Origin: a virus | Reading direction: 5' to 3' (one strand) | Length of the DNA: 64,000 nucleotides | IMG/VR virus record: IMGVR_UViG_3300025141_000060 | Span: 1-64,000 of that record | In this document: piece by piece, positions 4,169-64,000 of the stretch | Numbering within the stretch: position 1 is the stretch's first letter | How the letters are laid out: each line of letters opens with the position of its first letter | Notes under the pieces: model-generated | What the model saw: only the letters and a program-made list of their open reading frames with translations | Databases searched by the model: none | Told to the model about the DNA's origin: nothing | Made by a program: the position numbers and the translations under genes

Positions 4169-4632
4169 TTTATAATGCTCTCAGTTAGAGTAACTTTTAA
4201 TACCCTATCAGCTTCTCCCCCAGGAAAAGGAGGATCTTCAACTGTTTTTTCTCTTTTTGGTTTTGGTCGAGGGCAGGTACACGCATCTTCCGCTGGAAGC
4301 CCTTGTTCAAGTGCGTGAGGAACCCCCTTTCCATAAGGACCTGAGAACTTTATATACTTACTTGAAGCGCAAGCACACTCAAAATATCTATCATCATACT
4401 CATCAGAGGCTTCGACCATACTCCAACACACTGTTGGAGGAGAAAATTTTAGTTCATTACACTCATCATTAGAAAAATCAGGGCACTCGGCCTCTGGGTG
4501 AGACTCTTTACATTCCTCAAAGTAAGTCCCTTCAAAATCATAAGTAGGTTTGGGGTGACTAGGAGTTGTAGAAGTATTTTGTCTCCAAGACCCTTCAAAC
4601 CTTCGAAATTTACAACAGTTTACTGTGGTCAT
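4165..4632 (-). CDS. Cys-rich hypothetical protein
   Basis: 155 aa with 4-nt overlaps to both neighbours; about 10 Cys (CC, CAC, CTC). Confidence 0.6.
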   Translation of the reverse strand: MTTVNCCKFRRFEGSWRQNTSTTPSHPKPTYDFEGTYFEECKESHPEAECPDFSNDECNELKFSPPTVCWSMVEASDEYDDRYFECACASSKYIKFSGPYGKGVPHALEQGLPAEDACTCPRPKPKREKTVEDPPFPGGEADRVLKVTLTESIIK

Positions 4633-24200: not shown

Positions 24201-24442
24201 GGATTATTGAGAGTACTTATATATTTTGCTGTGCCTGCTTCAACATGATCATCTGGGTTTAGTCTGCCTAAACCAACTTGAAAATAGCCTACGAGATGAT
24301 CTGAAAGATCAGTGGATCCCGTATCCGTAAAGATGTTGCAAAGCCCAACACCAAGTCCATCGGTAAGAATGTTATGATCTTTACATACACACTCTTCTGT
24401 ACCATCCTTAAAAACTTTAGTAATTTCTACTGATCCTTTCAT
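21275..24442 (-). CDS. Fibre-adaptor domain (aa 1-~207) fused to formylglycine-dependent sulfatase (family S1)
   Basis: N-terminus paralogous to 20688-21275. Then KNVVLIMIDDVG, TPTL, CAPTRAALLTGRY, GKWHL, PFFMYVSPNIPHTP, NTVFIITSDNG, GFKATLYDRGMLVPM, DIVATIADIAG. Confidence 0.9.
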   Translation of the reverse strand: MKGSVEITKVFKDGTEECVCKDHNILTDGLGVGLCNIFTDTGSTDLSDHLVGYFQVGLGRLNPDDHVEAGTAKYISTLNNPLMLEDDYGKDSEIRINTHEILKYHPSNFDAAFATQYDEGVFAVLPDSHSTKVIDGVVHYRLTLTEEMANNLNNVPITEFGLFIRDGKANIKKDQSVLVAYKQLADGSGITKTSDFSLVIDWQLKFIVDEESSETTPGGDRKNVVLIMIDDVGMDHLGNYDAINPYEIQNDNHTAATPFSVLDDPVNGSSLYPYTPTLSAIAAAGMQMFNVRAQPACAPTRAALLTGRYNFSTKNFGGTGRGFWGPGIGIVPSSARRTRGGLKGLNSGFRFLNKTGDLENLTNQVEDGLGGVNTITTTPVIGNFLKRPDIDYQCAMFGKWHLSIWEDDIVYCEDNSPTRKGDGWSHIALKGYWDDYLATFSNLDADPIPGLNPNSGAFIEPDDWPNNGSTSYYTGGKNMGYVNYFVAKPGIPTKEGVPTADTYTVSDSNYVSFKQSADEVEYGQGDASSYTTNYIFSAASAYFNTAQEPFFMYVSPNIPHTPYTWPPSGGIYNSGLSSINQHTLLEAGVGATDSASSTWVTVNAMLENFDSTLSSFLQGLDETKKSNTVFIITSDNGALGPDIGRRAAYASSIGLGYASSLGGSYTGSGGLGATYDKMLNLGAYCSGLSPSAVRRGGENDTANGFKATLYDRGMLVPMFVSGAGVSAGVSSHAMIDLTDIVATIADIAGATTLPARDPLNIPSDSISFYNVLKGVTDASSHARQYSWGEAFFPIGNSTGDQKMHGSFTSSVLCPPEMLGGMRGGYTPQPTTPRRRRQALTLRLVPDDFIGYIPSRWTPTINYLNINDAPDVAITIESKEAIPDTSGGVWKLIRPSSGKVGLGSNFAHDVGDLVWETDAAGDYVLDENGNQIQTALTQGFGKWYEEMYHLQSFVDFSGVDLYELNDLILEENKGVYANHIASSLIVSAIQLPVAQGGINNGNANGGQLDNSVHYWNLARIFDALHQGFNRFYNTRVVPNTIFSSPSDGSMGDDPVE

Positions 24443-32796: not shown

Positions 32797-34409
32797 TAGA
32801 TAAAGGTTATGTTTATAGTTACATTATTTAATTGAACTACCTCATTAAAGTCTATCGAAATAGCGTCAGAGATATTATCAATTGTTGAGTAACGTACATT
32901 TGTAAGATCAAATATCTTTCTATTTAATTCCTGAGGAACAAAAGCGTCCCCAAAACCAAATCTAGAGTAGGAAAAGAAATTAGTTATAATATTAGATGCT
33001 TCTTGTTTTACAGATTCTTCTTTATCACTTAAAGAAGAATCAACGAATAATGTAACTATAAGATCTAATGTTCTTATTAATCCATCCACAACGACAATCT
33101 CATCGGTAAGCATCTTCTTGTTCTTTATAGCTGAAAGAAGATTTGCTTTATATTCTATTGTAGCCTTCTGAAGTTGCGTTTCAGTCGCCTTTTGTAAAAC
33201 AAACAGGTCAATAATATTAGCTGAAGAGTATGCTTTTCGTGTTGAAGCAGTTCCTATCGCTGCACCCCCTGAAGGGCTACGATACCTAGAAACATACGAA
33301 GCGAAGTCTCCTAAAGTAACTAACCGATCTTGTTGTTTAAACACTAAAGGTCCATTTACCTTAGCGTTTTCAACAGTTTCCGCGTCAACACCTCCTGTTA
33401 TTACACTTGTATTTGTTAATGTTCCCGCTCCTGCATTTTTGGTTACTATAGGGGCGTTAATAATAGAGCCGAGCAAATTGCCGCGACTTCCTCCCCCAAC
33501 TCTATAAAGAACTCGATACGAAGAAGAGTTTGGTGGTGCAGCACCTACGTTGCCATCACCAAACCGAACCAAGCCATTGTAATCTTCATCATAAATAACT
33601 TCAAAAATTTTATTAGTACTTCCTGACGCAGAATAAAGATTACCTACCTGTGTGTATGTTCCTGATAAAGAATCAGAAGAATCTATATAAATTTGAACAC
33701 TATTTTCAATAATAGGTCCTTGTGTTAAAGAAATAGTCTTAAATACTTGAGTGGTATCAAATGTACCCACTTCTTCAACTAATGCCCCCTCTAATAATGC
33801 TAGATTATTCCACGATATATTTTCTTCACCCTCAGAGCTAGAGCGGGATAATGTAATCTCTGAGGTATTACTGCCTAAATTTTGTATTTTTCCCGCAACA
33901 ACAGGGTATAATGTATAAGTTACCTGACCTCCATCTTGAGGAGATGAAAGCGTAATAATTCTACTGTCTGCTTCTACAATTGGATCTGCATCTGTAGATG
34001 CTGTATCGAGTGATATTCTCGCGTTTCCCCCCGCGCTGGTGGGGCCTTTCATTCGTATACCTATAAGCTCTAACAGCTTTCGAACATTTCTTCTACTTCT
34101 AGCGGTGGGTAAAAAGTTTTCATTCGCTAAAGCATCTGCTTTAAACGATAAAACAGCACCCATATACGAAATCAGTTCAGCAAACATTACACCAAAATCA
34201 GACTCACTAAAATTTTGATAGTCCTCTGGGTATACAGCTTGCATATAATTAAATAAAGAATCCCTTAAACTACCGAAATCCGTAGCGGCATAGTTTATTA
34301 AAGAATCTTTGTTTTCAAAGTTTGCCCCCTGCTGAATTAATTTTTGGAAATCTGACGAAGCAGTTGTGAAAGGTATTGTTGTAGGAAGATTATAATTTGA
34401 TGTACTCAT
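32796..34409 (-). CDS. gp6: Baseplate wedge subunit (gp6 / P2 gpJ-like)
   Basis: NYAATDFGSLR, ENFLPTA, VRFGDG, YRVGGGSRGN, GGVDAET, QDRLVTLGDF. Confidence 0.9.
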   Translation of the reverse strand: MSTSNYNLPTTIPFTTASSDFQKLIQQGANFENKDSLINYAATDFGSLRDSLFNYMQAVYPEDYQNFSESDFGVMFAELISYMGAVLSFKADALANENFLPTARSRRNVRKLLELIGIRMKGPTSAGGNARISLDTASTDADPIVEADSRIITLSSPQDGGQVTYTLYPVVAGKIQNLGSNTSEITLSRSSSEGEENISWNNLALLEGALVEEVGTFDTTQVFKTISLTQGPIIENSVQIYIDSSDSLSGTYTQVGNLYSASGSTNKIFEVIYDEDYNGLVRFGDGNVGAAPPNSSSYRVLYRVGGGSRGNLLGSIINAPIVTKNAGAGTLTNTSVITGGVDAETVENAKVNGPLVFKQQDRLVTLGDFASYVSRYRSPSGGAAIGTASTRKAYSSANIIDLFVLQKATETQLQKATIEYKANLLSAIKNKKMLTDEIVVVDGLIRTLDLIVTLFVDSSLSDKEESVKQEASNIITNFFSYSRFGFGDAFVPQELNRKIFDLTNVRYSTIDNISDAISIDFNEVVQLNNVTINITFI

Positions 34410-47675: not shown

Positions 47676-49547
47676 TTAAGTCTGCTTTACCTGAATAACA
47701 ATGGAGTTAGGACCTCTATTTCCTGGGTTTCTTTGGTTACTGTCTAAAATCTTAATTTGAAGTTCAGGAAAGCTTCTCCCATTAGCAGTGTAAGCATCCC
47801 AGCGTAATACAGTGTTGTAATCTTCTGCGTCTATCTTTTTTACGACTCCCGTAGAAAATCTAGCAGGAAAATGACTAGGGCAACCCATCAGCAAACCAAT
47901 ACCCTGAGGACCCCAATCAACAACTAAAGCTCCGTTGTTTGGACCATCAATATCTGGTCCATGAACGTCCAAAGGACGGAACCAAGCATTTCTTCTATAT
48001 GATATTGCTAAATATCTTTCTTCAGTTGGACAGTCATCCGCCAGATTAGCATGAACACAATTATTTTCTATCCACATCTCACTTCGATCAATATCTCTTC
48101 TTAGTAAAAGAAGCATTGTTTTAGAGTCAGCAACATTGGCTACCATATCTGGATCATCAAAAGCTTGATCATGAGCAAATAGTGTAATTTTTTGAACACC
48201 CTCTACGATTGCTGCTGGGTCTGGAAAATGAACGCATTGAGGTGGGAATTTCTCTTTAAAATGTACTCGATCAGCAGGTCCTGTTATTGGTCTCGCGCCT
48301 TTATTGGTTATAAACTTTTTAAATGCCGTAAAATGAGCCTCCTCCCACGCCCCGTACCTATTTTCAGAAGCTCCTCCAAAAGACATGAGATCCAAATTAT
48401 CTACACCCTCATAAGCATAACTAACACCATTGCAAGCATCATGCGGTGCGAGATGGTAATTATCATAACAATGCATGTCTGGCAAGCCTGCACGTTGAGG
48501 ATAATATTTTGAATCGTGGCTGTGTCCTATACTATGTCCAATTTCATGAAGGGTTACTTGAGTAACTCTTGCATCACCTAAAACTTGCGCTGCACTTGTC
48601 AAGTCTAAGAGTGCAGGAGGGTCATTAGCAAGACCTGCATCAGGCATTACAACGGTAAATACGAAAGGATCGCCCCCCGCATTACCTCCTAGATCATGGA
48701 CTTCGGGACAACCACCAAGAACAATTCCAATTTTTAGATCATATCCCACCAGATCCACACCCCCATCCCAGGATGCGCCATTCCCGTAACCATTATCCAT
48801 AAACCAGTTCTTCATCAACGTGCGAAAACCATCAGGTCCACCACAATCACAAGTCATCATGTGGCCAGGATTGCCACAAGGGTTTGTTGGGTTTGGGGAA
48901 TCAGGATTACCTACCCAAACAAAATCTAAATCAGAATTATTTGCTCCTGTATCTGGCATATTAGAACCACCAACTAATTCAAGCTGACCATGCGTGTAAT
49001 CCCTTATGCCTTTTTTAAGGTTATTACCCATTAGAGTCATGAACTCTGCCTGAGTCCAATCTGGACCCGTATAATTCTCTAGCTCGCTTGTCGAGGGCCA
49101 AAAAATTCCTACAACGGTACGGACTTCGGTTGATGTACCCCAACCAGCACCATAACCCACGGTGTCTGATGCTTTAATACCTTTTTCACCAACTTTTTTA
49201 AATTTACTTTCTATATCTTTAAAAGGGGTTTCTGGAGGAGTCATATGCCTAAAATCAGGATCTGGGGTGAGGTCGCAAGAATCAACAGAGTAGGTTCCGT
49301 CAGGATTTACTGTATGAGCACCTCCCCCAGGGTGAATACATTCTTTTCCTGGAGGCAAAAAATATCCCTTATAGTTATACGGATTGCTCATTCCGTTTAC
49401 CTCAGGACAAGTAGTATTACCCTCAGCATCGGGGTAGTTTCCGTTTGGGCCGATAGCACCCCGCCCACCAACACCTGCTCTAGGTACTCCAGCCCAAGGT
49501 GATCGTCCTCTTAATATATTCTTTCCCGATGCTCCTATTTTTGCCAT
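47676..49547 (-). CDS. Zinc metalloprotease, metzincin (M6/M11-like), paralog 1
   Basis: HEIGHSIGHSH (HExxHxxGxxH; HEIGH at 48534-48548) and Met-turn DLMSF; AGGAG RBS. Confidence 0.8.
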   Translation of the reverse strand: MAKIGASGKNILRGRSPWAGVPRAGVGGRGAIGPNGNYPDAEGNTTCPEVNGMSNPYNYKGYFLPPGKECIHPGGGAHTVNPDGTYSVDSCDLTPDPDFRHMTPPETPFKDIESKFKKVGEKGIKASDTVGYGAGWGTSTEVRTVVGIFWPSTSELENYTGPDWTQAEFMTLMGNNLKKGIRDYTHGQLELVGGSNMPDTGANNSDLDFVWVGNPDSPNPTNPCGNPGHMMTCDCGGPDGFRTLMKNWFMDNGYGNGASWDGGVDLVGYDLKIGIVLGGCPEVHDLGGNAGGDPFVFTVVMPDAGLANDPPALLDLTSAAQVLGDARVTQVTLHEIGHSIGHSHDSKYYPQRAGLPDMHCYDNYHLAPHDACNGVSYAYEGVDNLDLMSFGGASENRYGAWEEAHFTAFKKFITNKGARPITGPADRVHFKEKFPPQCVHFPDPAAIVEGVQKITLFAHDQAFDDPDMVANVADSKTMLLLLRRDIDRSEMWIENNCVHANLADDCPTEERYLAISYRRNAWFRPLDVHGPDIDGPNNGALVVDWGPQGIGLLMGCPSHFPARFSTGVVKKIDAEDYNTVLRWDAYTANGRSFPELQIKILDSNQRNPGNRGPNSIVIQVKQT

Positions 49548-49558
49548 TTTATAAACTC

Positions 49559-49571
49559 CTAATATATGTAG
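49559..49571 (-). promoter_or_regulatory. Late promoter candidate (CTACATATATTAG)
   Basis: TACATA-N3-TAG running into the AGGAG RBS of metalloprotease paralog 1. Confidence 0.5.
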
Positions 49572-49588
49572 ATGCCCTATTATAAGGT

Positions 49589-49873
49589 ATGGAATATTTT
49601 GTCAATTTTTTAGTGTGGATTTTTACTTTAATGGGTATAACAATTATTGTTACCCAATCTTCTATCTTTAATGCTATTAGACAGAAGATAGCAAAACTTA
49701 ATAGTTATTTAGGAATGCTAGTTAGTTGCCCACTATGCTTCTCTTTTTGGGCGGGTTTATTTCTATCCCATTTTTATACAAGCTTGACGGGAAATATGTT
49801 TTTTGATGCATTACTTGCAAGCGGAGTATCTTGGTATATGACCTATGAATCTCCTCAAATGCATCACCACTGA
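49589..49873 (+). CDS. Small membrane protein, DUF1360-like
   Basis: Hydrophobic segments and LGMLVSCPLCFSFWAG (L-x2-CPxC-x3-W). Confidence 0.7.
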   Translation: MEYFVNFLVWIFTLMGITIIVTQSSIFNAIRQKIAKLNSYLGMLVSCPLCFSFWAGLFLSHFYTSLTGNMFFDALLASGVSWYMTYESPQMHHH

Positions 49874-49906
49874 AAGAAAAACGGAGATCGTTCTGTAGAG
49901 TGATTT

Positions 49907-51595
49907 TCACCCTTGAACTATTTCTAGTTTTATCTTTTCTGGTCCTTGGTTCCCTGGCCCATCTGCTGCTTCTATGATTCTAATGGTTAACTTAGGATAA
50001 GTTATTCCATTTGCAGTATACGCTTCAAAAACTTTTTGTTCCCCTGGTCCCCCTGCTGGATAAGTAACCGAAGTATCTAACCCATATAAAGTAATTGGTC
50101 CATAAGCGGTTGAACCACAACCGTAGCCTTCTACCTGCCTCATTGGACCCCAATCTATCATTAGAGTTCCATTCATGTGCCAATCATCGGGGTAAACCTG
50201 ACCTCCAACAGTGCCTCCATTAGGTTGCGCTCTAGGTCCTTTGTACGAAGTATTTTTTCTATATGAAATACCTAGATATCTTTCTTTAGGATCCCCAACG
50301 CTTGCCATATCATCACAAGGCTGTATCTGGGACAGATCAATATCTCGACGCACTTTTATCAACATGGGCTTTCCTGTGTTTAATATATCTTGAGTTAGAG
50401 CATCTTCATAAACTCTGTCCTGTGCATATAAATCACCTGTCCAAATAACACCAGTACCAAGTCCTGATAAAGTAACTGCATTAGTATCAGTTAAATGAGC
50501 AGGACCTTGGCTTCCTACACCCCACATTTGATCAGGGATTCTTCCTATCATGTTTTTAGCATGAGCAGATGGGTGCGGTTCTCTCCACACATTAAAATTA
50601 TTTGTAAAGTATGAGGTATCCCAAGCCATTGTATCCCACATATCTATCCCCCCATAGCCTCCCTTCATTTCTGTACAAGGAAATATAGGTCCATTTGCTC
50701 TAAATGTTTCTATACAAGGATAAGGACCTCCCCCATTCGAGTACCTACCATTATGTGCATACCCCACGCTATGCAAAATTTCATGTAACGAAACTTGCCT
50801 AAGGTAACCACTAGTAAGGACACTTTCAGCTAATGCTATATAACCAGTGTCATCTGGCTGGTAAGGAGGCGCGGTCACGCTATTACGAAAAATTTCCGTA
50901 TAAAAATCAAGAAAAACAAGAGGATCCAAACTAGCACTTCCATATGAGCCGGTCCCAGGACCCGTCCAGCCATTGTGAGAACAACCAACACCAAGAGCAT
51001 ATTTAAGCTCATAATTAGCATCAGTGTATCCATTATTGTTAAACCAATTTTTTACTAATGTATGAATATTATTTGGTCCCCCACAATTACATGTCGTCAG
51101 TCCTGTTGTGCCACAATTAACGCTGGGAAGCTCACCTATCCAAACGAAATCAACATTAGATCCATTGGCTCCAACTAGTTGAACACTTCCGTAAGTAACA
51201 TCAGCTAAAGCTTTATTAATATCATTAACAAAATGCGTTTGAACTTCAGTTTGAGTCCACGGTTTAACCTCCTCCCCCAAACTACCAGTTGCTGTAAGAG
51301 GGCTATTTGGTGGATAATAAACAGCTATCACAGTCCTAAGGTTACCAGTCTGAAGTTGAACATTTGAATTGGTGTTGTATAGAGGGGGGTGCCCTATGTA
51401 CTTAGCATTTTCAGGCGGGATAGCGGTATCATTTCCACCGTTAGCATCATTAGCACACCTAAACCCAGGAGGCATTCCATTCCAATCAACACCCTCAGGG
51501 ATTTCCTGTTTTCCAACTGAGGGTATCCATCCCTGCGCTAACCGTTTTCCCCTCCCGAACCGTGATCCTCTCCCTACTGGTGTTATTCCTACCAC
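49907..51595 (-). CDS. Zinc metalloprotease, metzincin, paralog 2
   Basis: HEILHSVGYAH and Met-turn DTMAW; GTG start. Confidence 0.8.
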   Translation of the reverse strand: MVGITPVGRGSRFGRGKRLAQGWIPSVGKQEIPEGVDWNGMPPGFRCANDANGGNDTAIPPENAKYIGHPPLYNTNSNVQLQTGNLRTVIAVYYPPNSPLTATGSLGEEVKPWTQTEVQTHFVNDINKALADVTYGSVQLVGANGSNVDFVWIGELPSVNCGTTGLTTCNCGGPNNIHTLVKNWFNNNGYTDANYELKYALGVGCSHNGWTGPGTGSYGSASLDPLVFLDFYTEIFRNSVTAPPYQPDDTGYIALAESVLTSGYLRQVSLHEILHSVGYAHNGRYSNGGGPYPCIETFRANGPIFPCTEMKGGYGGIDMWDTMAWDTSYFTNNFNVWREPHPSAHAKNMIGRIPDQMWGVGSQGPAHLTDTNAVTLSGLGTGVIWTGDLYAQDRVYEDALTQDILNTGKPMLIKVRRDIDLSQIQPCDDMASVGDPKERYLGISYRKNTSYKGPRAQPNGGTVGGQVYPDDWHMNGTLMIDWGPMRQVEGYGCGSTAYGPITLYGLDTSVTYPAGGPGEQKVFEAYTANGITYPKLTIRIIEAADGPGNQGPEKIKLEIVQG

Positions 51596-51601
51596 AATTA
51601 T

Positions 51602-53614
51602 TTAACCTTTAGTAATTTTTATCTTAATCTTCCGTCTTTGGTTTGGAGCTACTCCCTGCTCCTCATCAACAACATAAACTTTCCATCCAGGAAAAACTAG
51701 TCCTGCTGAGGTAAATGACTCAATTTCAAACTTTTCATTATTAGGGTCAACGCCAAGGTCCACAACTCGCTCCATCGCTGCGAAAGAATTTAATCCGTTA
51801 ACCGTACTCCAAGGACCCCAATAAACCATCAAAACACCTAAGTCACTTGCTTTATATCTAGGGCTTTCTATATAACCAAAAGGCCCTGATTGTTCCATAT
51901 GAGTGTGGGATCGCCTTCTGGGACCATACTGATCAATGTGCCCCCTAGAGTAGTAAACAATATTTAAAAATCTTCTAGGAACAGGATCCAAAGCCATCCA
52001 AAAGGGAGGTTTTGGTCTATTCGATTCTAAAACTGTTTTAATCATCACCTTTTTTCCCTCTGGTGGGTCTTCTGGGAATTTAAACATATAATCTGCGGCA
52101 TCTAACCAACCTTCCCAACTCCAATTAGAAGCATTCTGATTTTCGCTTGTTAAATCATGCGTCATATCATCGGGAATAATACCCCTCCAATTTTGCATAG
52201 GTACATTAGGTTGTACAGTTCCTCCCCCAAAAGCGGTGTATCCCATTTTCTTTATTTTGGGAGCCTCTTGTGAAACATTATACGCCCCTACCGTTCCCAT
52301 AACATCGTAAATATCATTACCTACATAAAAGATAGCTGCATCTTGACACCCACCTCCATCAGGACCAGCGGATAAAAAGTAACATGGTGTATTTTGGCTA
52401 GAGTAGGAACTACTGCAATCTGCATTAGGCCAATTTTGCTCATTATATAAAAAAGAACAACCTCCATACTGTGGGACGTTGAAATTATGTAAATGAGAAA
52501 ACCCAGCACCAAAACCTTGAGTAACTAAATTATGGGCATACTCATGCAAAGCCATATTAATATAGCCTCTATTTTCGTGAACATCTTTAAAATCAGCCCA
52601 TTTTAAAATACCGTTGTCCCAAGCATCAAAATTCATAGAACCATAACACCCATACCATGGAGATGTAGGATAGTCAGTAGTTGCGTAAGGTATTTGCCAC
52701 TCCCTATCATCAGTCATACCCCAATATGGAGTTCCAGGTAAACCCCTAACGGGGCTCAAGAAAATATATAAATGCTTCCTTCCATCATCCCCTGTTGGAG
52801 ATGCGCCACCTGCCGTCCAGCAACCTGCAACAATATGAACAATTAAATTATATTCATCAAAATCAGAATCATTTTCAATGGTATCATACATTTTAGTTCT
52901 AGAGCCTGAAGTGTTACATAATTTATTAAGTAGCGCACTATTGCTGCCACCTTGAACCCCTGCACAATTTGGTCCCGTGTAAGCGGTTGTGCTTCCACAG
53001 GGCTCAGTACCGTCAAACATATACTTCGTTCCTTGGTAAACATCAGGAGAATCACTATTTTTACCAATTAAAGTAATGTTTCCTAAGAAAGCGGCTCTAA
53101 AGGCTTCAGCCCAATCTTTAGATACTACAGTGTCAAGATATGTTTGGTCCCACTTATGCTTGCTTCCGTATTCCTGTTTATCCCTATCATTAACTAATTT
53201 ATATACTTCTTCGGATGGAGCACCAGGGTTAGGACCATTCAAACACATGTTCCCATCACCCATCTTCCATAAAACAATTGCTGTTTTTTGGTTTTTTAAG
53301 AAAAGAGGAGGAGGCGTCTCCGAATTAGGGCCTACCGTCATATTTTGTGTGGGGGTTTCTGGCAATGGTTGTCCACGAAACTGTTCTCCATAAGTTTTAG
53401 GAAATTCTTCAGCATACTCTAACGCCTTGGCGTAAAAAGCTTTTTCTTCTTCTACCGTATCAGGTAATTCTTTGTTACTATCTGGCAAATAACAATGCCA
53501 CGCTGATTGATAAGGCCAACCAGTTTTGTTGTTTTTTCCATCAGAAAGTATATCCCTACTTAAATATCTCTTTACTGCCCCAGGGCCTTTAAAAATTCCT
53601 CTTCTTCCTACCAT
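51602..53614 (-). CDS. Zinc metalloprotease, metzincin, paralog 3 (most divergent)
   Basis: HEYAHNLVTQGFGAGFSH (insertion before third His) and DVMG. ATG at 53614 with GGAG RBS is preferred over the track's 53626. Confidence 0.75.
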   Translation of the reverse strand: MVGRRGIFKGPGAVKRYLSRDILSDGKNNKTGWPYQSAWHCYLPDSNKELPDTVEEEKAFYAKALEYAEEFPKTYGEQFRGQPLPETPTQNMTVGPNSETPPPLFLKNQKTAIVLWKMGDGNMCLNGPNPGAPSEEVYKLVNDRDKQEYGSKHKWDQTYLDTVVSKDWAEAFRAAFLGNITLIGKNSDSPDVYQGTKYMFDGTEPCGSTTAYTGPNCAGVQGGSNSALLNKLCNTSGSRTKMYDTIENDSDFDEYNLIVHIVAGCWTAGGASPTGDDGRKHLYIFLSPVRGLPGTPYWGMTDDREWQIPYATTDYPTSPWYGCYGSMNFDAWDNGILKWADFKDVHENRGYINMALHEYAHNLVTQGFGAGFSHLHNFNVPQYGGCSFLYNEQNWPNADCSSSYSSQNTPCYFLSAGPDGGGCQDAAIFYVGNDIYDVMGTVGAYNVSQEAPKIKKMGYTAFGGGTVQPNVPMQNWRGIIPDDMTHDLTSENQNASNWSWEGWLDAADYMFKFPEDPPEGKKVMIKTVLESNRPKPPFWMALDPVPRRFLNIVYYSRGHIDQYGPRRRSHTHMEQSGPFGYIESPRYKASDLGVLMVYWGPWSTVNGLNSFAAMERVVDLGVDPNNEKFEIESFTSAGLVFPGWKVYVVDEEQGVAPNQRRKIKIKITKG

Positions 53615-53615
53615 A

Positions 53616-55235
53616 TTAAACTCCAACGGGCTCTATTAAAACCTTAATCCTATCTGGCCCTTGTTCATCCGAGGTTCCTGCATTCTCTAGAACCCTAATG
53701 TTTAATGTTTTGTAATTTACCCCATTACCAAGATATCCGTTGTAAGTTGCTGTGGGGGTTCCTGTGGTGGTAATTATTTCTGCATTAAAGGTTTCCAACG
53801 AGCAGCTTCCATAGTTATTCAAATGATTACAATTTGTAATACTAGTATTATTACGGCAAGGACCCCAACTTGTTACAAGAGCACCATTTTGCCAATAAGG
53901 ATCTCTATACCAAGCATTTTTTCTATAATAAAGAGCTAAGTATCGGGGCTCTCCAACACCTATAGAATCACATGGAGGAAGCTCAGTAATATCTGCATCC
54001 CTTCTTATTTTTAAAAGCATAGGCTTCCCTGTAGCTAACACATCTTGAGTTCTAGGATCATCAAACTTTCTATCCATTGCGTATAAATAACCTTCCCAAC
54101 TCTCCCCGTTAGCTAAAGTTATTGTGTTAGCAGCAGGTAAGTGTGCAACCCCTTGGTTCCCTTCATGAGAAGCCCACATATAAGGCTGCCCCATCAGACT
54201 CTTTTTAAGAGCATCAGGGTGTGGTTCTCGCCAAACACTAAAGTTATTTCTTCCAGGAGTCGCACCCCAAGCCATAGTACTATAATGATCGGCTCCGCCA
54301 TAGCTGTAGCTTACCTGGGTACATCTTCCTTCGCCAAAAATAGGCCCGTTTAACCTATGCTCTTCACCACAATCAGTATTTAAATAATAAGCTGAATCAT
54401 GTGTGTATCCAATACCATGTAAAATTTCATGAATAGCGACTTGTCTTACATTACCAAACCCTAAAACGCTTGGAGCGAAAGTATCAGAAACAGTATCTTG
54501 GGGATATGGAGGAATGTTTGAGATTGTAGCATCCTCTGGATCACTCATATAGACAAACAAAGTAGGATCATAGCTCGCTGAACCACCAATAGTAACTGAA
54601 TCACTGCAACCCATAATAATAGCTAATTTCACTTCATAATTAGCATCAGAGTATCCATTATTGTTAAACCAACTTATTATGTTAGGTTTAATAGTACCAG
54701 CCCCTCCACATGTACACTGGTACTGATTATTAGTACCACAAATAGTTGATGGAATCGAGCCCACAAAAACTGCATCAACCTCAGAAGTAGCAGATCCTAT
54801 TAAGGTAGTAGTTCCATAGGTCATATCGGAAATAGCTTCTTGCATCTGCTTTCCAAAAAATTGCCGTATAGCTTCGGGGGTCCACTCATCAACTACAGCC
54901 CCTTGAGGCCCTACAGCCGCAAATTCCGCGTTAAGAGGTGAAGTATCTGGAATAAAAATACCAATTACTGTTCTGAGAGCACCACTTTGTAACTTATTGC
55001 TTCCAGGACCCACTGCTAGAGAAGCTGGTCTTGTCGAAACACTTGGGAAGGCTACTTCAGTATAATCCCCTGACTCATTTCCAGGAAGAATACAAGATAC
55101 TCCTGGTGGGAGATAGTATTGTCCACCACGAAACTCATCCCCCGTGAATCTAGTGCTATAAACCTGCTGCCTCCCTGGAGAGGTTAAATTTTGCATCCCT
55201 GCTGGGGTTAACAAACTTCTTGCTTTTCCTATCAT
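53616..55235 (-). CDS. Zinc metalloprotease, metzincin, paralog 4
   Basis: HEILHGIGYTH and Met-turn STMAW. Confidence 0.8.
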   Translation of the reverse strand: MIGKARSLLTPAGMQNLTSPGRQQVYSTRFTGDEFRGGQYYLPPGVSCILPGNESGDYTEVAFPSVSTRPASLAVGPGSNKLQSGALRTVIGIFIPDTSPLNAEFAAVGPQGAVVDEWTPEAIRQFFGKQMQEAISDMTYGTTTLIGSATSEVDAVFVGSIPSTICGTNNQYQCTCGGAGTIKPNIISWFNNNGYSDANYEVKLAIIMGCSDSVTIGGSASYDPTLFVYMSDPEDATISNIPPYPQDTVSDTFAPSVLGFGNVRQVAIHEILHGIGYTHDSAYYLNTDCGEEHRLNGPIFGEGRCTQVSYSYGGADHYSTMAWGATPGRNNFSVWREPHPDALKKSLMGQPYMWASHEGNQGVAHLPAANTITLANGESWEGYLYAMDRKFDDPRTQDVLATGKPMLLKIRRDADITELPPCDSIGVGEPRYLALYYRKNAWYRDPYWQNGALVTSWGPCRNNTSITNCNHLNNYGSCSLETFNAEIITTTGTPTATYNGYLGNGVNYKTLNIRVLENAGTSDEQGPDRIKVLIEPVGV

Positions 55236-55238
55236 AAT

Positions 55239-56234
55239 TTATTTAACCGTAAAGTACATTAAGGGACTTACAATTTTTTCGGCTAACATATTGTAAGTTA
55301 CTTGAACAGAATAAGTTCCTGTTTTACTGCCCAGATCACCAACCTCTAAGTCCGCTGGATTTCCGTTTTTTAAGTCGTTTACAGTATCAAAAGTGTACAC
55401 GATTGTATCATCTGATGTTATGGAAACATCAGAAGTTGCACTAACGACAGTAACTCTAGAAGGTAAATTAGAGTCTTCATTATGCTTTTTGATTACAACC
55501 GTAGCACTCGTTATAACGGAGTCTTTAAAAATGTTTTTTATATCTTCATTGATATTTTCATTTTCTACTGTAATCTCTGTTCCAATCTTTAGATCTGTTT
55601 TAGATCCTAAGATAACACGCTTATTATAAAGCCTATTTTTGGAACGTAATAATAGCGGTTCAGTTACTGTAAATACGGTGTTATCATATAGCTCAAAGTT
55701 ATTGATGTAAATTGACCAAGCAGAGTCTGTGCTCATTTTAACGGTCCATACATCAATATATCGCCCTGTACTTGAGGTAGCGTTTTGTATAACATCCCCA
55801 TTTTGGTCAAGCCCAGATAAGATACTTCCTAGACCACCATCAAGTACAGAGGCAAATTCACCAGTACCAAGTTTGTATATTCCACTCACCCCACTACATT
55901 GACGCTCAAATACCCCAGCCTCAACCTCAACATTAGGCGCTTCTCCTGTATAATTAGAAGAATCAAAACTTGTATCGGTTCCAAGTTCTCCCGTCCCGCT
56001 TGGACTAAAAACCATCCTAGCTTGTCCTGTCATAGAACTTGCTACGAGCCCCCTATCATCTAAGATAGTATTTGGGGAGAGGTTATTTGAACGATCAAAA
56101 ACGTGTACAGTACTTACAGCATAGGGATCTTGATAAGTTCCATCATTAATAAAATAGGTTCTAAGCATTACTTTAGAATCTACTTGGGGTCGATTATTTC
56201 TATCTGAAACAGGTATATTATTGATTGAGGGCAT
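55239..56234 (-). CDS. Hypothetical virion structural protein
   Basis: 331 aa, beta-rich (GRYIDVWTVK, GTYSVQVTY); in the late operon upstream of the proteases. Confidence 0.55.
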   Translation of the reverse strand: MPSINNIPVSDRNNRPQVDSKVMLRTYFINDGTYQDPYAVSTVHVFDRSNNLSPNTILDDRGLVASSMTGQARMVFSPSGTGELGTDTSFDSSNYTGEAPNVEVEAGVFERQCSGVSGIYKLGTGEFASVLDGGLGSILSGLDQNGDVIQNATSSTGRYIDVWTVKMSTDSAWSIYINNFELYDNTVFTVTEPLLLRSKNRLYNKRVILGSKTDLKIGTEITVENENINEDIKNIFKDSVITSATVVIKKHNEDSNLPSRVTVVSATSDVSITSDDTIVYTFDTVNDLKNGNPADLEVGDLGSKTGTYSVQVTYNMLAEKIVSPLMYFTVK

Positions 56235-56397
56235 CTTTTTCTCTTTGTTTCTCTTCTGCTAAAAGCTCTAGGAAAGTAACTCTTTCCGTCCTAGTGAGTG
56301 TTTTAACATCACTATAGGATAAACCTATGTGTTTCACAAGTATATAGGCTTCACGAAGTAAGTCTGAGACTTCTATGGACCCATTTAATTCACTGAG
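56218..56397 (-). CDS. gp51-like / chaperone GT extension reached by -1 frameshift
   Basis: 59-codon frame without ATG: LSELNGSIEVSDLLREAYILVKHIGLSYSDVKTLTRTERVTFLELLAEEKQREKDALNQ*. It is -1 relative to the upstream gene at A AAT TTT TTC. Confidence 0.7.
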   Translation of the reverse strand, partial: LSELNGSIEVSDLLREAYILVKHIGLSYSDVKTLTRTERVTFLELLAEEKQREKDALNQ

Positions 56398-57137
56398 AAA
56401 AAATTTTCGTCTAGAGGTAGGCTAACTAAATTAGAATTATTACAAGAATCGCACACATAACGAACCGAAGGTTGAACCCCATAATCAGATAACATAAGTT
56501 CTTTAATCAAAATATGGATATCCATTATAGGAAGCTGAGAAATAACCTTAGAAATTATTCTTTGGTCATCAACTCCGTCAATACTAGTAACATACCTCCA
56601 GATGTTCTCACTAAGAACAGCGGGATCTAAAAAGTTCTCATCCCCTACTGTCAAAAAAGATACAGTTGCATTCTTTTTAATACCTTTTAAGAAAACCTCT
56701 CGACCCATAAAATTAAAATCTTTAGGGACTGAAACAGATAATAACTTATCAATCTCTAGATTCAACGTATTTTCATAATTACATTGAGGACACACAGACC
56801 CAACTTTATAATCAGCGCCATAAGATAATTCTCTTACTTTTAGTAATAAAAATAATTTATCTAGTAATAAAAGCTTATCTACATCAACATTAGAAACACA
56901 TTTAGATAGTAGATAATTTGCAGGGTTAAAAGAAGCTGTTCGTGATCCTGTACTTAAAGATTTCTCATCTTCAAAAGTCATAGGCCTAACCCGCAATAAC
57001 CCTTCTTTGCCAAAATAAGGAATACCTCTTGATGGAACTTCAACATCAATCTCAGTTTCTGCTGGTAGATGCTCTAATATAGACGCAATTTGCTCGTCTT
57101 CTGTTAACACTTCTGTTTCTGGAATTTCGTTATTCAT
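56385..57137 (-). CDS. Baseplate hub / tail assembly chaperone (gp26-like)
   Basis: VPSRG, VRPMTFEDE, DKLFLLLKVRELSYG, CPQC...CDSC, ends NFF. ATG at 57137 with GAGGA RBS is preferred over 57176. Confidence 0.85.
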   Translation of the reverse strand: MNNEIPETEVLTEDEQIASILEHLPAETEIDVEVPSRGIPYFGKEGLLRVRPMTFEDEKSLSTGSRTASFNPANYLLSKCVSNVDVDKLLLLDKLFLLLKVRELSYGADYKVGSVCPQCNYENTLNLEIDKLLSVSVPKDFNFMGREVFLKGIKKNATVSFLTVGDENFLDPAVLSENIWRYVTSIDGVDDQRIISKVISQLPIMDIHILIKELMLSDYGVQPSVRYVCDSCNNSNLVSLPLDENFFSVN

Positions 57138-57164
57138 AGTATCCTCTAATCTATAATAGTATGT

Positions 57165-58526
57165 ATGGAAGTACACGTAAATACAATAAATTCGACCTTG
57201 GTTACTGATAATCCAAAACTAATCAGTGCTTTAGTGGGATTATATTCATTCAAGGTTCCAGGGGCTGAATACTCGCCCCAATATAAGCGTCGATCCTGGG
57301 ACGGCAAAAAAAAGTTTTTCTCTAAAAAAGGACAATTTAAGACAGGGCTTCTAGAAAGAGTATTAGCAGACCTTAAAAAAGTAGAAGCAGAACCCAAAAT
57401 TATAGATAATAGAAAAATAGTAAATAATAACAAGAACTATGATTTTGAAAAATTTACTTACTATGACTATCAAGAGAAAACTATACAAAAAGCTTTAGAG
57501 AAAAAAAGAATGGTTATAAAAGCACCTACAGGATCAGGAAAAACACTAATCATGGCTGGTCTTGTAAAAGCCTTAGAGGGCAAAAAAATGGTATTGCTTT
57601 TTAACGCCAAGCAGCTTTTAACACAAACATATGAATTCCTAAAGGCGTTGGATATTTCAAACTTAGGTTTGTGTTATAGTGAGGGGTTTATTTTAGGGGA
57701 TATTATGCTTTGTACTGTGCAAAGCATTGAGAAAATACTTGACACACATTTAGATGCTGATGTCTTGATGGTAGATGAGTGCCATGAGTTTAGTAATGGA
57801 AAAACTACCGTTGCAGCCATACAATCCTTCCCTAACGCTAATCATCGCTATGGGTTTACTGCTACACCTCCCGCCAACAATATTAGTAAATTTAATCTAG
57901 AGGGGGGTTTAGGTCCCGTGTACTCTGTAGCCACAACAAAAGAACTCGTTGATAAAGGGAAACTAACGAAACCAATTATTCAAATAATACATAGACCTTA
58001 TACTGCTGCATATCAAGATAATAATTTATCTTACCTTGAGATATATAATGAATTTATTATTAATAATTCTTCTAGAAATACTACTATAAAGGAGATTGTA
58101 GATGACATTAAAGAAAAAAACAAAAGAGCCCGTATACTTATACTTACCAAATCACTTGATCACGGAAGAACCTTGGAAAACTTACTTGGAGGGAGTTGTG
58201 AATTCCTCCAAGGGTGTGATTCAATCGGAGAAAGGTATGAAGCTATATCTAGATTCCGAGGATGTGGAGGATCTAGCGTCCTCATTGGTACTAAAATCCT
58301 CCAAACAGGGGTTAATATTGAAGAAATCACCCACTTCATAAATGCGAGAGGCATGAAATCAGAAATTGCCACCCTTCAGGCGCTAGGTAGAGCGTTACGG
58401 ACACATGAAACAAAAGAAAAGGTTTATGTTTATGATTTTTTCGACCAAGAAAAGTACTTAGTCGATCATTCTTTAGAAAGAGAGAAACATTATAAGGCTG
58501 AAGGCCATGAAATTAAAATAATATGA
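57165..58526 (+). CDS. uvsW: SF2 DNA helicase (UvsW-like)
   Basis: YDYQ, APTGSGKT, DECH, GFTATP, TGVNI, QALGRALR; N-terminal Y-K-x3-WDG-x3-F typical of UvsW. Confidence 0.85.
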   Translation: MEVHVNTINSTLVTDNPKLISALVGLYSFKVPGAEYSPQYKRRSWDGKKKFFSKKGQFKTGLLERVLADLKKVEAEPKIIDNRKIVNNNKNYDFEKFTYYDYQEKTIQKALEKKRMVIKAPTGSGKTLIMAGLVKALEGKKMVLLFNAKQLLTQTYEFLKALDISNLGLCYSEGFILGDIMLCTVQSIEKILDTHLDADVLMVDECHEFSNGKTTVAAIQSFPNANHRYGFTATPPANNISKFNLEGGLGPVYSVATTKELVDKGKLTKPIIQIIHRPYTAAYQDNNLSYLEIYNEFIINNSSRNTTIKEIVDDIKEKNKRARILILTKSLDHGRTLENLLGGSCEFLQGCDSIGERYEAISRFRGCGGSSVLIGTKILQTGVNIEEITHFINARGMKSEIATLQALGRALRTHETKEKVYVYDFFDQEKYLVDHSLEREKHYKAEGHEIKII

Positions 58527-62756: not shown

Positions 62757-64000
62757 TTAAGATTCTTTGATTTTTCCTAAAATTCTTTGCCAAGTTTTTT
62801 GTTCATCTACCCTATACCCCTCTTTCTTTTTAATTTTGTCTCTATACTTCATTAAAGAAGAAAAATCCTCATTCGGTCTTTCTTGCTGTGTCGGTGTTGA
62901 ATTTAGCCCTCCAGGGGTATTACCTTGAGGCAGTTCACCCGCTCCTGGTGATATCTGATTAAGCTCCTGCTGTTGGTATGCAGCTTCTTCCGACTCTTTT
63001 TTTAGTTTCTCTTTTAATAACAAAATCTCACCCTCACTCATATTATAGTATTCCTTGTAGATATAATCTTTTGGAAATAATTGAGTTTGAGTAACAGTTT
63101 GAACTATTGCTAAACGAGCCTGATCAATTTCTAATCTTCTTTTTGTAAATCTATCAGAAGGATCTGGCAATTGAATCCTTAAGTCTTTAATTAAGCTTAA
63201 AGGAAAATTCTTCATCACAAGATGACGTTTAACTAAAATCTCTAAACCTACTTCAATATCGTGTTGCACTCTCGCAACAGCCCTAGCGAATTTAACATCC
63301 AATTCCGACAGGTTCGCTTTTTTATCTGGTGCCTTATCTTTTGTTTCCACCACATAATCGCGTGGAACTTTAAGAGCCGCTAACAGCTTGTCCCTAAAGT
63401 AAGATACATCAGTCACTTCGCCTAAATTTTGCGCCCCAGGAAGGGTCTCAATCCGAGTTCCCTGGTTTCCTTTGATAGGGACAAAATAATCTTCGTCTGC
63501 TGCTAATGGGTTGTATCGAGTATCAACACCATTACCTCGCATATATTTCTCTTTTTTAAATTTTTCCTTAACTCTCTCAATAAACATCTCAGCTTTACTA
63601 GAGGGCAAGTTGCCTACATCAATATAAAAGATTCGTCTTTCTGGGGCTCTTGAGAGCCTATAAATAAGCATTGCATCTTCCATCAGACGCAATGATCTGA
63701 ATGTTTGAACCCCATAAGCAGCTACTGACTTGCCGTAGGGGTAAAATTTAGGATCAGATGTAAATAAACGAAAATGGACTATTTGATTCTTATCTAGCTC
63801 AATAAATTTAGAGTTCTTTGTTCCTGTTTGATCAATATCAAACGCACCTCCTTGAGCATAATCACTTTTTCCTGCATCTGGAATTTGCTGAAGGAATGTT
63901 TTTAGATAACCATAATCATCCTCAACGCGCAAAAGAAAATTTGGATTTAGTACCTTAACTTTTTGTATTCCAGCATCGGGGTTATTTACATCAGCAATAG
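62757..64000 (-). CDS. gp20: Portal protein (T4 gp20-like), 5' end outside window
   Basis: LRLMEDAMLIYRLSRAPERRIFYIDVGNLP, EDYFVP, TLPGAQNLG, YFRDKL. Frame stays open from 63932 to the window edge (IADVNNPDAGIQKVKVLNPNF). Confidence 0.96.
   Translation of the reverse strand, partial: IADVNNPDAGIQKVKVLNPNFLLRVEDDYGYLKTFLQQIPDAGKSDYAQGGAFDIDQTGTKNSKFIELDKNQIVHFRLFTSDPKFYPYGKSVAAYGVQTFRSLRLMEDAMLIYRLSRAPERRIFYIDVGNLPSSKAEMFIERVKEKFKKEKYMRGNGVDTRYNPLAADEDYFVPIKGNQGTRIETLPGAQNLGEVTDVSYFRDKLLAALKVPRDYVVETKDKAPDKKANLSELDVKFARAVARVQHDIEVGLEILVKRHLVMKNFPLSLIKDLRIQLPDPSDRFTKRRLEIDQARLAIVQTVTQTQLFPKDYIYKEYYNMSEGEILLLKEKLKKESEEAAYQQQELNQISPGAGELPQGNTPGGLNSTPTQQERPNEDFSSLMKYRDKIKKKEGYRVDEQKTWQRILGKIKES

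What the first reader, a model, noticed from the sequence alone, without database searches (positions are those of the whole stretch)
47676..55235. Array of four paralogous Cys-rich metzincin proteases in the late-gene region
Seen: four 539-670 aa genes share colinear blocks: [RK]T[VA][IV], W[TD]xxE, Y/H-G-xx-L[IV]G, CG...CxCGG, HExxH..GxxH, a Met-turn, R[YF]Lx[IL]xY, G-x-L-x3-WGP, and a C-terminal [YF]TxxG...IK[ILV]xI. They are co-oriented with the structural genes, downstream of the tail chaperone, and paralog 1 has its own late-promoter motif. Established: this architecture fits M6 (InhA) / M11 (gametolysin) metzincins, which degrade extracellular proteins and wall glycoproteins. Inference: an expanded set of virion-carried or lysis-released proteases aimed at an S-layer, proteinaceous wall or biofilm, each paralog with its own specificity. 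A four-copy expansion is very unusual for a phage.
Basis: partly seen in the sequence, partly recalled or inferred. Interest (0 to 1): 0.88.

Follow-up and report, generated by a model that had tools for sequence, protein, structure and literature searches.

The report
Four phage metzincin zinc-protease paralogs
An uncultured marine T4-like phage carries four neighbouring, anciently duplicated genes for zinc proteases of a very rare family seen so far only in similar phage contigs; they have the fold of bacterial InhA-type secreted proteases but no export signal, so they probably cut host-surface or matrix proteins after lysis or from the virion, which is untested.

Summary
Four minus-strand genes (47676-55235; 623, 562, 670/674 and 539 aa) are paralogs. 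Three match each other at E 1e-45 to 1e-103. The fourth (51602-53626) is very divergent and is linked only by profile methods (hhalign 98.9%, E 2e-17).

Across 17 family members, His-Glu-His-His of the zinc site and a downstream Met are invariant. An AlphaFold model (pLDDT 69, pTM 0.76) is a metzincin. It is closest to Bacillus anthracis InhA2 (M6; Z 12.7, 321 residues, catalytic plus C-terminal domains). ADAM/adamalysins (Z about 9) and OgpA (M11-annotated) follow.

No Pfam, NCBIfam or PHROG model reaches its threshold, and the third zinc ligand is His, not the Asp of M6. This is therefore a new metzincin family, not an M6 or M11 member.

The family is rare: 15 clusters among 1.84 billion representatives, none in 50,697 deposited phage genomes. 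Every contig with identifiable neighbouring genes is T4-like. Copy number ranges from 1 to at least 4.

No member has a signal peptide or membrane segment. All full-length members carry an N-terminal leader, unstructured in the one model made, with one conserved Cys (a Cys-switch candidate).

The protease identity is well supported. Virion or lysis-released action, the S-layer target and late expression remain inference. The claimed late promoter was not confirmed.

The parts
53616..55235 (-). Paralog P4 (539 aa, clade B). First of the translationally close-packed run. The N-terminal leader is residues 1-82, the catalytic domain about 84-364, and the C-terminal beta domain about 365-539.
   Evidence: The AF2 model was made on this copy. 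An ortholog with 50% identity is in L005/L006.
54399..54431 (-). P4 zinc site HEILHGIGYTH (H269, E270, H273, H279). The Met-turn segment YGGADHYSTM lies at 54273-54302 (M321).
   Evidence: These residues are invariant in 17 sequences.
51602..53626 (-). Paralog P3 (674 aa from TTG; 670 aa from ATG 53614; clade C). It is very divergent. Its zinc motif HEYAHNL-VTQGFGA-GFSH lies at 52493-52546 and carries a 7-residue insertion. Its Met-turn segment lies at 52298-52327.
   Evidence: Homology rests on profile methods only. An ortholog with 46% identity is in L005/L006.
49907..51595 (-). Paralog P2 (562 aa, GTG start). It is a singleton lineage, closest to P4 (41% identity). Its zinc motif HEILHSVGYAH lies at 50753-50785 and its Met-turn segment at 50627-50656.
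47676..49547 (-). Paralog P1 (623 aa, clade A, the most widespread type). Its zinc motif HEIGHSIGHSH lies at 48516-48548 and its Met-turn segment at 48384-48413. Its stop abuts the convergent primase gene.
   Evidence: It is 91% identical to a copy on TARA contig L012. The start at 49547 is supported by the shared MAKIGASGKNILRGR leader of the orthologs.
55086..55109 (-). Conserved N-terminal PPGxxC[IAY]x motif with the one conserved leader cysteine (P4 C48). It is a candidate cysteine-switch of a propeptide. The equivalents are at 49332-49355 (P1), 51449-51472 (P2) and 53486-53506 (P3).
   Evidence: The Cys column is filled in 16 of 16 sequences that cover it. The leader has pLDDT <50 in the model. 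The function is inferred, not shown.
49589..49873 (+). A 94-aa DUF1360 membrane protein with a CxxC motif, on the opposite strand between P2 and P1. A homolog lies directly after a protease gene in two other genomic contexts.
   Evidence: Pfam PF07098 at E 2.9e-5. Orthologs are in L009/L010/L013 and in L005/L006. Any functional link to the proteases is speculative.
55239..56234 (-). A 331-aa gene of unknown function directly upstream. Its stop is 3 nt before the P4 start, so it is probably co-transcribed with the array.
   Evidence: No PHROG or Pfam hit. The ESM Atlas returns only unnamed viral clusters. Syntenic 329-335-aa genes are in L009/L010.
56385..57176 (-). A gp26-like baseplate-hub gene that heads the co-oriented run.
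   Evidence: PF12322 T4_baseplate at E 4.5e-12 and phrog_150 at E 7.6e-16.

Best explanation
Each of the four genes encodes a zinc endopeptidase of the metzincin clan, in a previously undescribed family seen only on phage-like marine contigs.

Each protein has three parts. First comes a basic leader of about 80 residues, unstructured in the model, with one conserved cysteine; it has no signal peptide. Second comes a catalytic domain of about 280 residues, with zinc held by three histidines, a catalytic glutamate and a Met-turn. Third comes a C-terminal beta-rich domain of about 175 residues, arranged as in Bacillus InhA2.

I propose the following mechanism. The proteins are made in the infected cell as latent zymogens, with the leader cysteine capping the zinc. 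Because they cannot be exported, they reach their substrates only when the cell lyses or as passengers on the virion. Outside the cell they cut proteins or glycoproteins of the host surface or the surrounding matrix. The anciently diverged paralogs supply different specificities.

Shown here: the paralogy, the conserved active-site residues, the predicted metzincin fold, the absence of export signals, and the rarity and phage restriction of the family. Inferred: catalytic activity, latency through the cysteine, site of action, substrates and timing of expression.
For: Active site: H269, E270, H273, H279 and M321 (P4 numbering) are invariant in 17 sequences that share only 19-54% identity with the reference copy P4. 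A family profile hits only metzincins in the PDB. The best alignment (myroilysin, E 0.0045) runs from the zinc motif to the Met-turn.

Fold: the AF2 model has pLDDT 69 and pTM 0.76. InhA2 4yu5_A gives Z 12.7, rmsd 4.3, 321 residues aligned, spanning model residues 84-539. ADAM17 and adamalysins give Z 8.5-9.6 over residues 84-364. Eighty chains score Z>=8, and all 50 entries listed are metzincins. Foldseek ranks InhA2 (E 1.6e-4) and OgpA (E 6.6e-4) first. The nearest ESM Atlas clusters carry PF05548/PF05547.

Action outside the cytoplasm: Cys content is 2-3 times that of the other ORFs in the window. Two pairs of Cys columns are present or absent together across clades, as disulfide partners would be. 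One Cys is conserved in the leader. The structural relatives are secreted zymogens. A sulfatase domain sits in a 1055-aa protein of the tail region of the same phage (PF00884, E 9.8e-23), which fits an enzyme-assisted attack on a complex envelope or matrix.

No export route: no signal peptide or transmembrane segment in any of the 17 sequences.

Gene layout: P4, P3 and P2 are packed within 1-6 nt of each other, behind the gp26-like hub gene and the 331-aa gene. Family members sit next to morphogenesis genes in two other T4-like contexts (L009: syntenic; L011: upstream of terminase and portal).
Against: There is no direct evidence of activity, expression time or location.

The array is flanked by helicase, primase and exonuclease genes. 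In L005/L006 it lies among small unknown ORFs, so the structural-module context is not constant.

No T4-type late promoter lies upstream. P1 has a sigma-70-like TTGACA-N15-TATAAT.

The conserved Cys166/174/176/210 cluster could be a structural zinc site rather than disulfides, and that would suit a cytoplasmic enzyme.

The leader is unmodelled (pLDDT <50), so the Cys-switch idea rests on one conserved residue.

P3 has an insertion inside the zinc motif and may be impaired.

The model came from a 17-sequence alignment, and its coordinates could not be inspected for zinc-site geometry.
Confidence: 0.5

Rival explanations
1. These are intracellular proteases. They act inside the infected cell on host proteins, for takeover, destruction of defence proteins, or recycling of host protein into amino acids in a nutrient-poor ocean. 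The four paralogs cover different targets.
For: No export signal in any member. The neighbours include replication genes, and in L005/L006 only small ORFs typical of accessory regions. A sigma-70-like promoter lies before P1, and no late motif was found. The CG...CxC...C cluster could be a Cys4-type structural zinc site, as in cytoplasmic archaemetzincins (PMC12237041 describes such sites; archaemetzincins score Z 6.7-8.2).
Against: The closest structural relatives over the whole length are secreted zymogens (InhA2). Cys columns that co-occur in pairs look like disulfides. A latency leader makes little sense for an enzyme meant to work at once in the cytoplasm. P4, P3 and P2 are chained behind a baseplate-hub gene.
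Confidence: 0.25
2. These are true structural components of the baseplate or tail. They would be depolymerase-like enzymes fixed to the particle that digest a proteinaceous layer at adsorption. This is the stronger form of the virion hypothesis.
For: They are co-oriented and close-packed behind the gp26-like hub gene. The position is syntenic in the L009/L010/L013 phages. The same phage carries a sulfatase domain on a protein of the tail region.
Against: No domain is shared with any other ORF of the window, so no recognisable attachment or adaptor module is present. Copy number varies from 1 to 4 or more between related phages, which is awkward for fixed baseplate stoichiometry. No PHROG structural family matches. 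The gp25, gp6 and spike-region genes lie more than 10 kb away.
Confidence: 0.15
3. These are non-catalytic proteins: binding or structural proteins that merely keep a protease-like fold.
For: P3 and its orthologs have a 7-10-residue insertion inside the zinc motif. No activity data exist.
Against: All four zinc-site residues and the Met are invariant across 17 members at 19-54% identity to the reference copy, P3 included. Pseudo-enzymes usually lose such residues.
Confidence: 0.07

Closest known systems
Immune inhibitor A peptidases (InhA/InhA2, 'thuringilysins', MEROPS M6), e.g. Bacillus anthracis InhA2 zymogen, PDB 4YU5/4YU6
   Same: Best structural match, and the only one that spans both the catalytic and the C-terminal domains (Z 12.7, 321 residues, model residues 84-539). 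It is a metzincin catalytic core with beta-rich domains packed after it. It is a zymogen with an N-terminal pro-segment.
   Different: Sequence identity is about 10%. PF05547 and TIGR03296 do not reach threshold. The third zinc ligand here is His, not the Asp of thuringilysins (PMC12237041). There is no signal peptide. The proteins are smaller (539-674 aa against a 695-aa chain). They are phage-encoded and in tandem arrays.
Gametolysin family (MEROPS M11, Pfam PF05548), including the M11-annotated O-glycopeptidase OgpA of Akkermansia (PDB 6Z2D etc.)
   Same: Three-His motif HExxHxxGxxH plus a Met-turn, as in OgpA's H205/H209/H215/M231 (PMC7518263). The nearest ESM Atlas clusters carry PF05548. 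Foldseek gives E 6.6e-4 to OgpA. By my own recollection, M11 enzymes attack glycoprotein cell walls and are made as proenzymes.
   Different: PF05548 finds nothing in the genome at E<=10. The fold match to OgpA is weak (Z 6.8, rmsd 5.5). The Met lies 42-65 residues after the third His, against 16 in OgpA.
Adamalysin/ADAM/reprolysin metzincins (MEROPS M12B)
   Same: The catalytic domain superposes at Z 8.5-9.6 with about 187 residues aligned and rmsd 3.5. Seven of 17 members give sub-threshold Reprolysin_3/4/5 hits. They are Cys-rich, and latency by a cysteine switch is known in this family (my own knowledge).
   Different: All Pfam scores are below the gathering cut-offs. There are no disintegrin or Cys-rich ancillary domains. 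The C-terminal domain resembles that of InhA2 instead.
Other phage-borne metalloprotease arrays noted in this scan (freshwater giant Bacteroidota phage with three stalked M12-like proteases; e1-6032164)
   Same: A tandem array of diverged metzincin-like paralogs in an uncultured phage, with no counterpart in deposited phage genomes.
   Different: According to that note, those proteins carry export signals, FN3 stalks and Reprolysin Pfam matches. The proteins here have no export signal, belong to another family and sit in a T4-like marine phage. I did not test that finding here.

Membership tests
Metzincin clan MA(M) | Extended zinc motif HExxHxx[G/N]xx[H/D] | tested here: met
   The motif is exact in P1, P2 and P4. 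H, E, H and H are invariant in 17 sequences, and clade D has N in place of G. P3 and its orthologs keep all the residues but carry a 7-10-residue insertion before the Gly.
Metzincin clan MA(M) | Met-turn downstream of the third zinc ligand | tested here: met
   M321 is invariant, 42-65 residues after the third His, within Y.G.D....M. It aligns with the Met-turn region of myroilysin in a profile search. The turn geometry could not be inspected.
Metzincin clan MA(M) | Metzincin catalytic-domain fold | tested here: met
   AF2 pTM is 0.76. Eighty PDB chains score Z>=8 and all 50 entries listed are metzincins; the top hit is Z 12.7. This is a predicted model, not a solved structure.
Metzincin clan MA(M) | Zinc-dependent endopeptidase activity | not testable with these tools
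   This needs a biochemical assay.
MEROPS M6 / Pfam PF05547 (InhA) | Match to the family model above its cut-off | tested here: not met
   PF05547 finds no match in the whole record at E<=10. Pfam scans of 17 members give none. TIGR03296 matches one member at E 0.07.
MEROPS M6 / Pfam PF05547 (InhA) | Asp as the third zinc ligand (HExxHxxGxxD) | tested here: not met
   His is invariant at that position. The Asp of thuringilysins is stated in PMC12237041.
MEROPS M6 / Pfam PF05547 (InhA) | Catalytic domain followed by tightly packed beta-rich C-terminal domains | tested here: met
   The model aligns to InhA2 over residues 84-539, well above matches that cover only the catalytic domain (Z 12.7 against 9.6).
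MEROPS M6 / Pfam PF05547 (InhA) | Secretion signal peptide | tested here: not met
   No hydrophobic N-terminal segment in any of the 17 members (maximum KD15 is 1.25). That InhA is secreted is my own knowledge.
MEROPS M11 / Pfam PF05548 (gametolysin) | Match to the family model above its cut-off | tested here: not met
   PF05548 finds no match in the record at E<=10, and none in the Pfam scans.
MEROPS M11 / Pfam PF05548 (gametolysin) | Three-His zinc motif plus Met-turn | tested here: met
   The motif for M11/M12 and for OgpA is given in PMC7518263.
MEROPS M11 / Pfam PF05548 (gametolysin) | Fold similarity to an M11-annotated structure (OgpA) | tested here: inconclusive
   Foldseek gives E 6.6e-4, but VIA gives only Z 6.8 at rmsd 5.5. 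ESM Atlas clusters with PF05548 score 0.95-0.96, which is a lead only.
MEROPS M12B / Pfam Reprolysin_3/4/5 | Match to a family model above its cut-off | tested here: not met
   The best values are E 4e-4 to 1e-3, e.g. 19.5 bits against a cut-off of 27. Only the zinc helix matches. Seven of 17 members give such hits.

The most novel reading that the evidence does not exclude
The four latent metzincins, together with the sulfatase-bearing protein of the tail region in the same phage, form a virion-carried or lysis-released multi-enzyme kit. The kit lets a T4-like phage get through a proteinaceous or sulfated-glycoprotein envelope, or a particle matrix, of an unidentified marine host. That would be a mode of phage entry or spread by proteolysis with no characterised precedent. 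The adjacent DUF1360 CxxC membrane protein might take part in their maturation.
Probability: 0.2. Interest if true: 0.8.

Novelty: new variant of a known kind. Interest (0 to 1): 0.58.

Why it matters
Phage enzymes known to breach host envelopes are almost all glycan- or peptidoglycan-directed. Dedicated endoproteases are rare, and none of this family occurs in any cultured or deposited phage.

The family is phage-restricted and conserved, and it has been duplicated repeatedly while every catalytic residue was kept. That implies strong selection for proteolysis in a group of uncultured marine T4-like phages. It also hints that their host presents a protein or glycoprotein barrier, or lives in a proteinaceous matrix.

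The genes are short enough to express and assay. They therefore offer a direct route to the substrates, and possibly to the host's identity. They may also add a new branch between M6 and M11 in metzincin classification.

Tried and rejected
- The first AF2 run, on the 4-sequence alignment, failed (pLDDT 33). It was replaced by a run on the 17-sequence alignment.
- A profile of A1 against PDB sequences gave no hits at E<=10. The A4 profile gave only weak hits, all of them metzincins.
- PHROGs gave nothing for the four proteins. NCBIfam gave nothing significant.
- tblastn of P1, P3 and P4 against 50,697 phage records gave no match.
- A pattern scan of 185,579 prokaryote genomes found no relative.
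- IMG/VR scans found only one other record, L014, which is the same contig as L011.
The long contigs that hold P0009 and P0022 (92 kb) could therefore not be fetched.
- Metagenome records behind L006, L009, L010 and L013 are not held for whole-record searches. Copy numbers on those contigs are minima for the stretches seen.
- The promoter and terminator scan was uninformative, with fewer sites than in shuffled sequence. Upstream gaps across the window showed no shared late motif.
- Tat signal: one paralog has an RRGIFK-like string, but no hydrophobic segment follows it. Rejected.
- Replacement of the gp5 spike lysozyme: the C-terminal part resembles InhA2's C-terminal domains rather than a spike, and the gp25/gp6 genes and the ORFs just before them lie more than 10 kb away. 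Rejected.
This was not pursued.
- The N-terminal leader is not better conserved than the rest within clade A. No special claim is made for it beyond the conserved Cys motif.
- The ESM Atlas gave nothing useful for the 331-aa neighbour.
- Literature searches found no description of this family or of M6/M11-like proteases in phage virions.


Full report
**What is there**

The window is the first 64 kb of a 74,990-bp IMG/VR virus record, with a CheckV completeness of 67%. It is a distant T4-like myovirus. It encodes:
- a gp20 portal (PF07230, E 9e-62);
- a gp26-like hub protein (PF12322);
- gp25-like and gp6-like wedge proteins;
- a Dda/UvsW-type helicase, a gp61-like primase and an exonuclease.

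Its portal and gp6 proteins are at most 38% and 25% identical to anything among 50,697 deposited phage genomes. The best match is an uncultured 595-kb phage.

Four ORFs lie on the minus strand at 53616-55235 (P4, 539 aa), 51602-53626 (P3, 674/670 aa), 49907-51595 (P2, 562 aa) and 47676-49547 (P1, 623 aa). They follow the gp26-like gene and a 331-aa gene of unknown function. The gaps between the 331-aa gene, P4, P3 and P2 are only 1-6 nt. P1 is separated from P2 by 359 nt, which hold a 94-aa gene on the opposite strand.

**Check of the observation**

P1, P2 and P4 match each other at E 9e-45 to 1e-102.

P3 is not found by pairwise searches. A profile built without P3's clade detects P3 at E 1.2e-6 with filters off. 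hhalign joins the two profiles at 98.9% probability, E 2e-17, over 441 columns. The four are therefore true paralogs, one of them very old.

The record holds exactly four copies. Cys content is 1.6-2.1%, against 0.72% in the other ORFs of the window.

Two side claims are weaker:
- No TATAAATA lies upstream of any copy. The P1 upstream region has TTGACA-N15-TATAAT instead.
- The 'tail chaperone' is a gp26-like hub gene, one gene removed from the array.

**Family and distribution**

An exhaustive HMM search of 1.84 billion cluster representatives found only 15 proteins, including the window's own. A word-based search of 5.8 billion found three. There are no hits in deposited phage genomes, none in a scan of 185,579 prokaryote genomes, and one other IMG/VR record.

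Nine metagenome loci were recovered; their contig names include TARA, JGI, VTLG and FUFK records. Copy number per locus:
- The syntenic 27-98-kb contigs L009, L010 and L013 have one copy. It lies between the gp26-like, 335-aa and 181-aa genes on one side and a DUF1360 gene plus primase on the other.
- L005/L006 have three adjacent copies among small ORFs.
- L007, L008 and L012 each have at least two tandem copies on short contigs.
- L011 has one copy, upstream of the terminase and a T4-like portal.

A maximum-likelihood tree shows old clades shared between phages:
- clade A: P1 plus the copies on L007-L010 and L012, with further tandem duplications;
- clade B: P4 plus the 548-aa protein of L005;
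- clade C: P3 plus the 660-aa protein of L005/L006, on a long branch;
- clade D: absent from this window;
- P2: alone.

The expansion is therefore ancient and recurrent, and copy number runs from 1 to at least 4.

**What the proteins are**

In a 17-sequence alignment (19-54% identity to P4), the invariant residues are H269, E270, H273, H279, C289, P298, C305, Y312, M321, A386, D388, Y437, G451 and W457-G458-P459. These include the metzincin zinc motif and a methionine 42-65 residues after it.

Pfam gives only sub-threshold reprolysin or matrixin hits to the zinc helix, in 7 of 17 members. PF05548 (M11) and PF05547 (M6) find nothing in the genome at E<=10. NCBIfam and PHROGs give nothing significant. 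A family profile against PDB sequences returns metzincins among all 60 hits shown, all weak. The best is myroilysin at E 0.0045, aligned from the zinc motif through the Met-turn.

AlphaFold2 on the 17-sequence alignment gave pLDDT 69 and pTM 0.76, with residues 1-82 unstructured. VIA-align against 48,161 PDB representatives ranks the matches as follows:
- B. anthracis InhA2 first: Z 12.7, rmsd 4.3, 321 residues aligned, spanning model residues 84-539;
- ADAM17 and adamalysins: Z 8.5-9.6, catalytic domain only;
- Amuc_1438 and OgpA: Z 6.8-6.9.

Foldseek agrees, with InhA2 at E 1.6e-4 and OgpA at E 6.6e-4. The ESM Atlas independently places P4 nearest to clusters carrying PF05548 or PF05547 (0.95-0.96) and to M11/M6 models by structure (TM about 0.5). 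In BFVD the best match is an uncharacterised Gaeavirus protein (E 1.4e-7).

Family membership is not supported, because the family models fail and the third ligand is His. Thuringilysins (M6) use Asp at that position (PMC12237041). M11, M12 and OgpA use three His (PMC7518263). I file this as a new metzincin family with InhA-like domain architecture.

**Features that bear on mechanism**

- None of the 17 members has a signal peptide or transmembrane segment.
- Every full-length member has a basic, Gly/Arg-rich leader followed by a PPGxxC[I/A/Y] motif, whose Cys is conserved in 16 of 16 sequences that cover it. This is a candidate cysteine switch. I confirmed only the conservation.
- Two pairs of Cys columns (C422/C469, and alignment columns 107/363) are present or absent together across clades, as disulfide partners would be. 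C289 and C305 are invariant.
- The C166/C174/C176/C210 cluster could be either disulfides or a structural zinc site.
- P3 and its orthologs carry a 7-10-residue insertion between HExxHxx and GxxH. Their activity is less certain.
- The proteases share no domain with any other ORF of the window.

**Most likely mechanism**

I think these are active zinc endopeptidases (about 0.8). They would be made as latent precursors that cannot be exported, so they act only after lysis or as virion passengers. Their substrates would be protein or glycoprotein components of the host surface or surrounding matrix. The old paralogs would give different specificities. Overall confidence in this reading is about 0.5.

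A sulfatase domain in a 1055-aa protein of the tail region of the same phage (PF00884, E 9.8e-23) fits an enzyme-assisted attack on a complex envelope.

The rivals are:
- an intracellular role (0.25), supported by the missing export signal, the replication-gene neighbours and the sigma-70-like promoter;
- fixed baseplate components (0.15), weakened by variable copy number and the lack of an attachment module;
- non-catalytic proteins (0.07), contradicted by the invariant catalytic residues.

Expression time, location and substrates are not shown by anything I could compute.

**Novelty and verdict**

This is a new, very rare metzincin family seen only on phage-like contigs, in tandem arrays of variable size in uncultured marine T4-like phages: a new variant of a known kind.

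The scan has noted a different phage protease array before on other DNA (stalked, exported, M12-like proteases in a freshwater giant phage). Multi-copy phage metzincins are therefore not unique, but this family, its lack of export signals and its InhA-like build are.

Limits:
- Whole metagenome records were not searchable.

Noticed in passing
window 49589-49873 (+); L009 11688-11960 (-); L006 8755-9042 (-): A 90-95-aa DUF1360 membrane protein with a conserved CxxC motif (PF07098, E 2.9e-5) lies convergent, directly after a protease gene, in three different genomic contexts. It may be functionally linked, for example through thiol chemistry or membrane action, but this was not tested.
   Followed up: partly
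window 21275-24442 (-): A 1055-aa protein in the tail and baseplate region carries a sulfatase domain (PF00884, E 9.8e-23, residues 373-750).
   Followed up: partly
window 52493-52546 (-); P0009: The P3 clade has a 7-10-residue insertion between HExxHxx and GxxH of the zinc motif. That is unusual for metzincins. All ligand residues are kept.
   Followed up: partly
window 49579-49605 (-): TTGACA-N15-TATAAT lies upstream of P1 and overlaps the start region of the opposite-strand DUF1360 gene. No T4-type TATAAATA lies near the array.
   Followed up: partly
L012 150-3800; L008 159-3725; L007 344-3589: Other marine contigs hold two tandem clade-A copies. One L012 copy is 91% identical to P1 but is followed by a further paralog rather than by primase, so that phage may carry more than four copies.
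   Followed up: partly
window 4165-4632 (-): A 155-aa ORF has 10 cysteines (6.5%), by far the most Cys-rich ORF in the window.
   Followed up: no
window 26293-32796 (-): A 2167-aa protein directly after the gp6-like gene has a Tail_P2_I domain (PF09684, E 1.3e-6). It is probably a giant gp7-like wedge or fibre-base protein.
   Followed up: no
window 32796-34409 and 62757-63932 (-): Among deposited phages, the nearest relative of the gp6-like and portal proteins is the 595-kb uncultured phage LR756511.1 (25% and 38% identity). This lineage has no cultured relative.
   Followed up: no
BFVD A0A3G5A2V9 (Gaeavirus): An uncharacterised 603-aa giant-virus protein is the best viral fold match to the P4 model (Foldseek E 1.4e-7, TM 0.40).
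   Followed up: no
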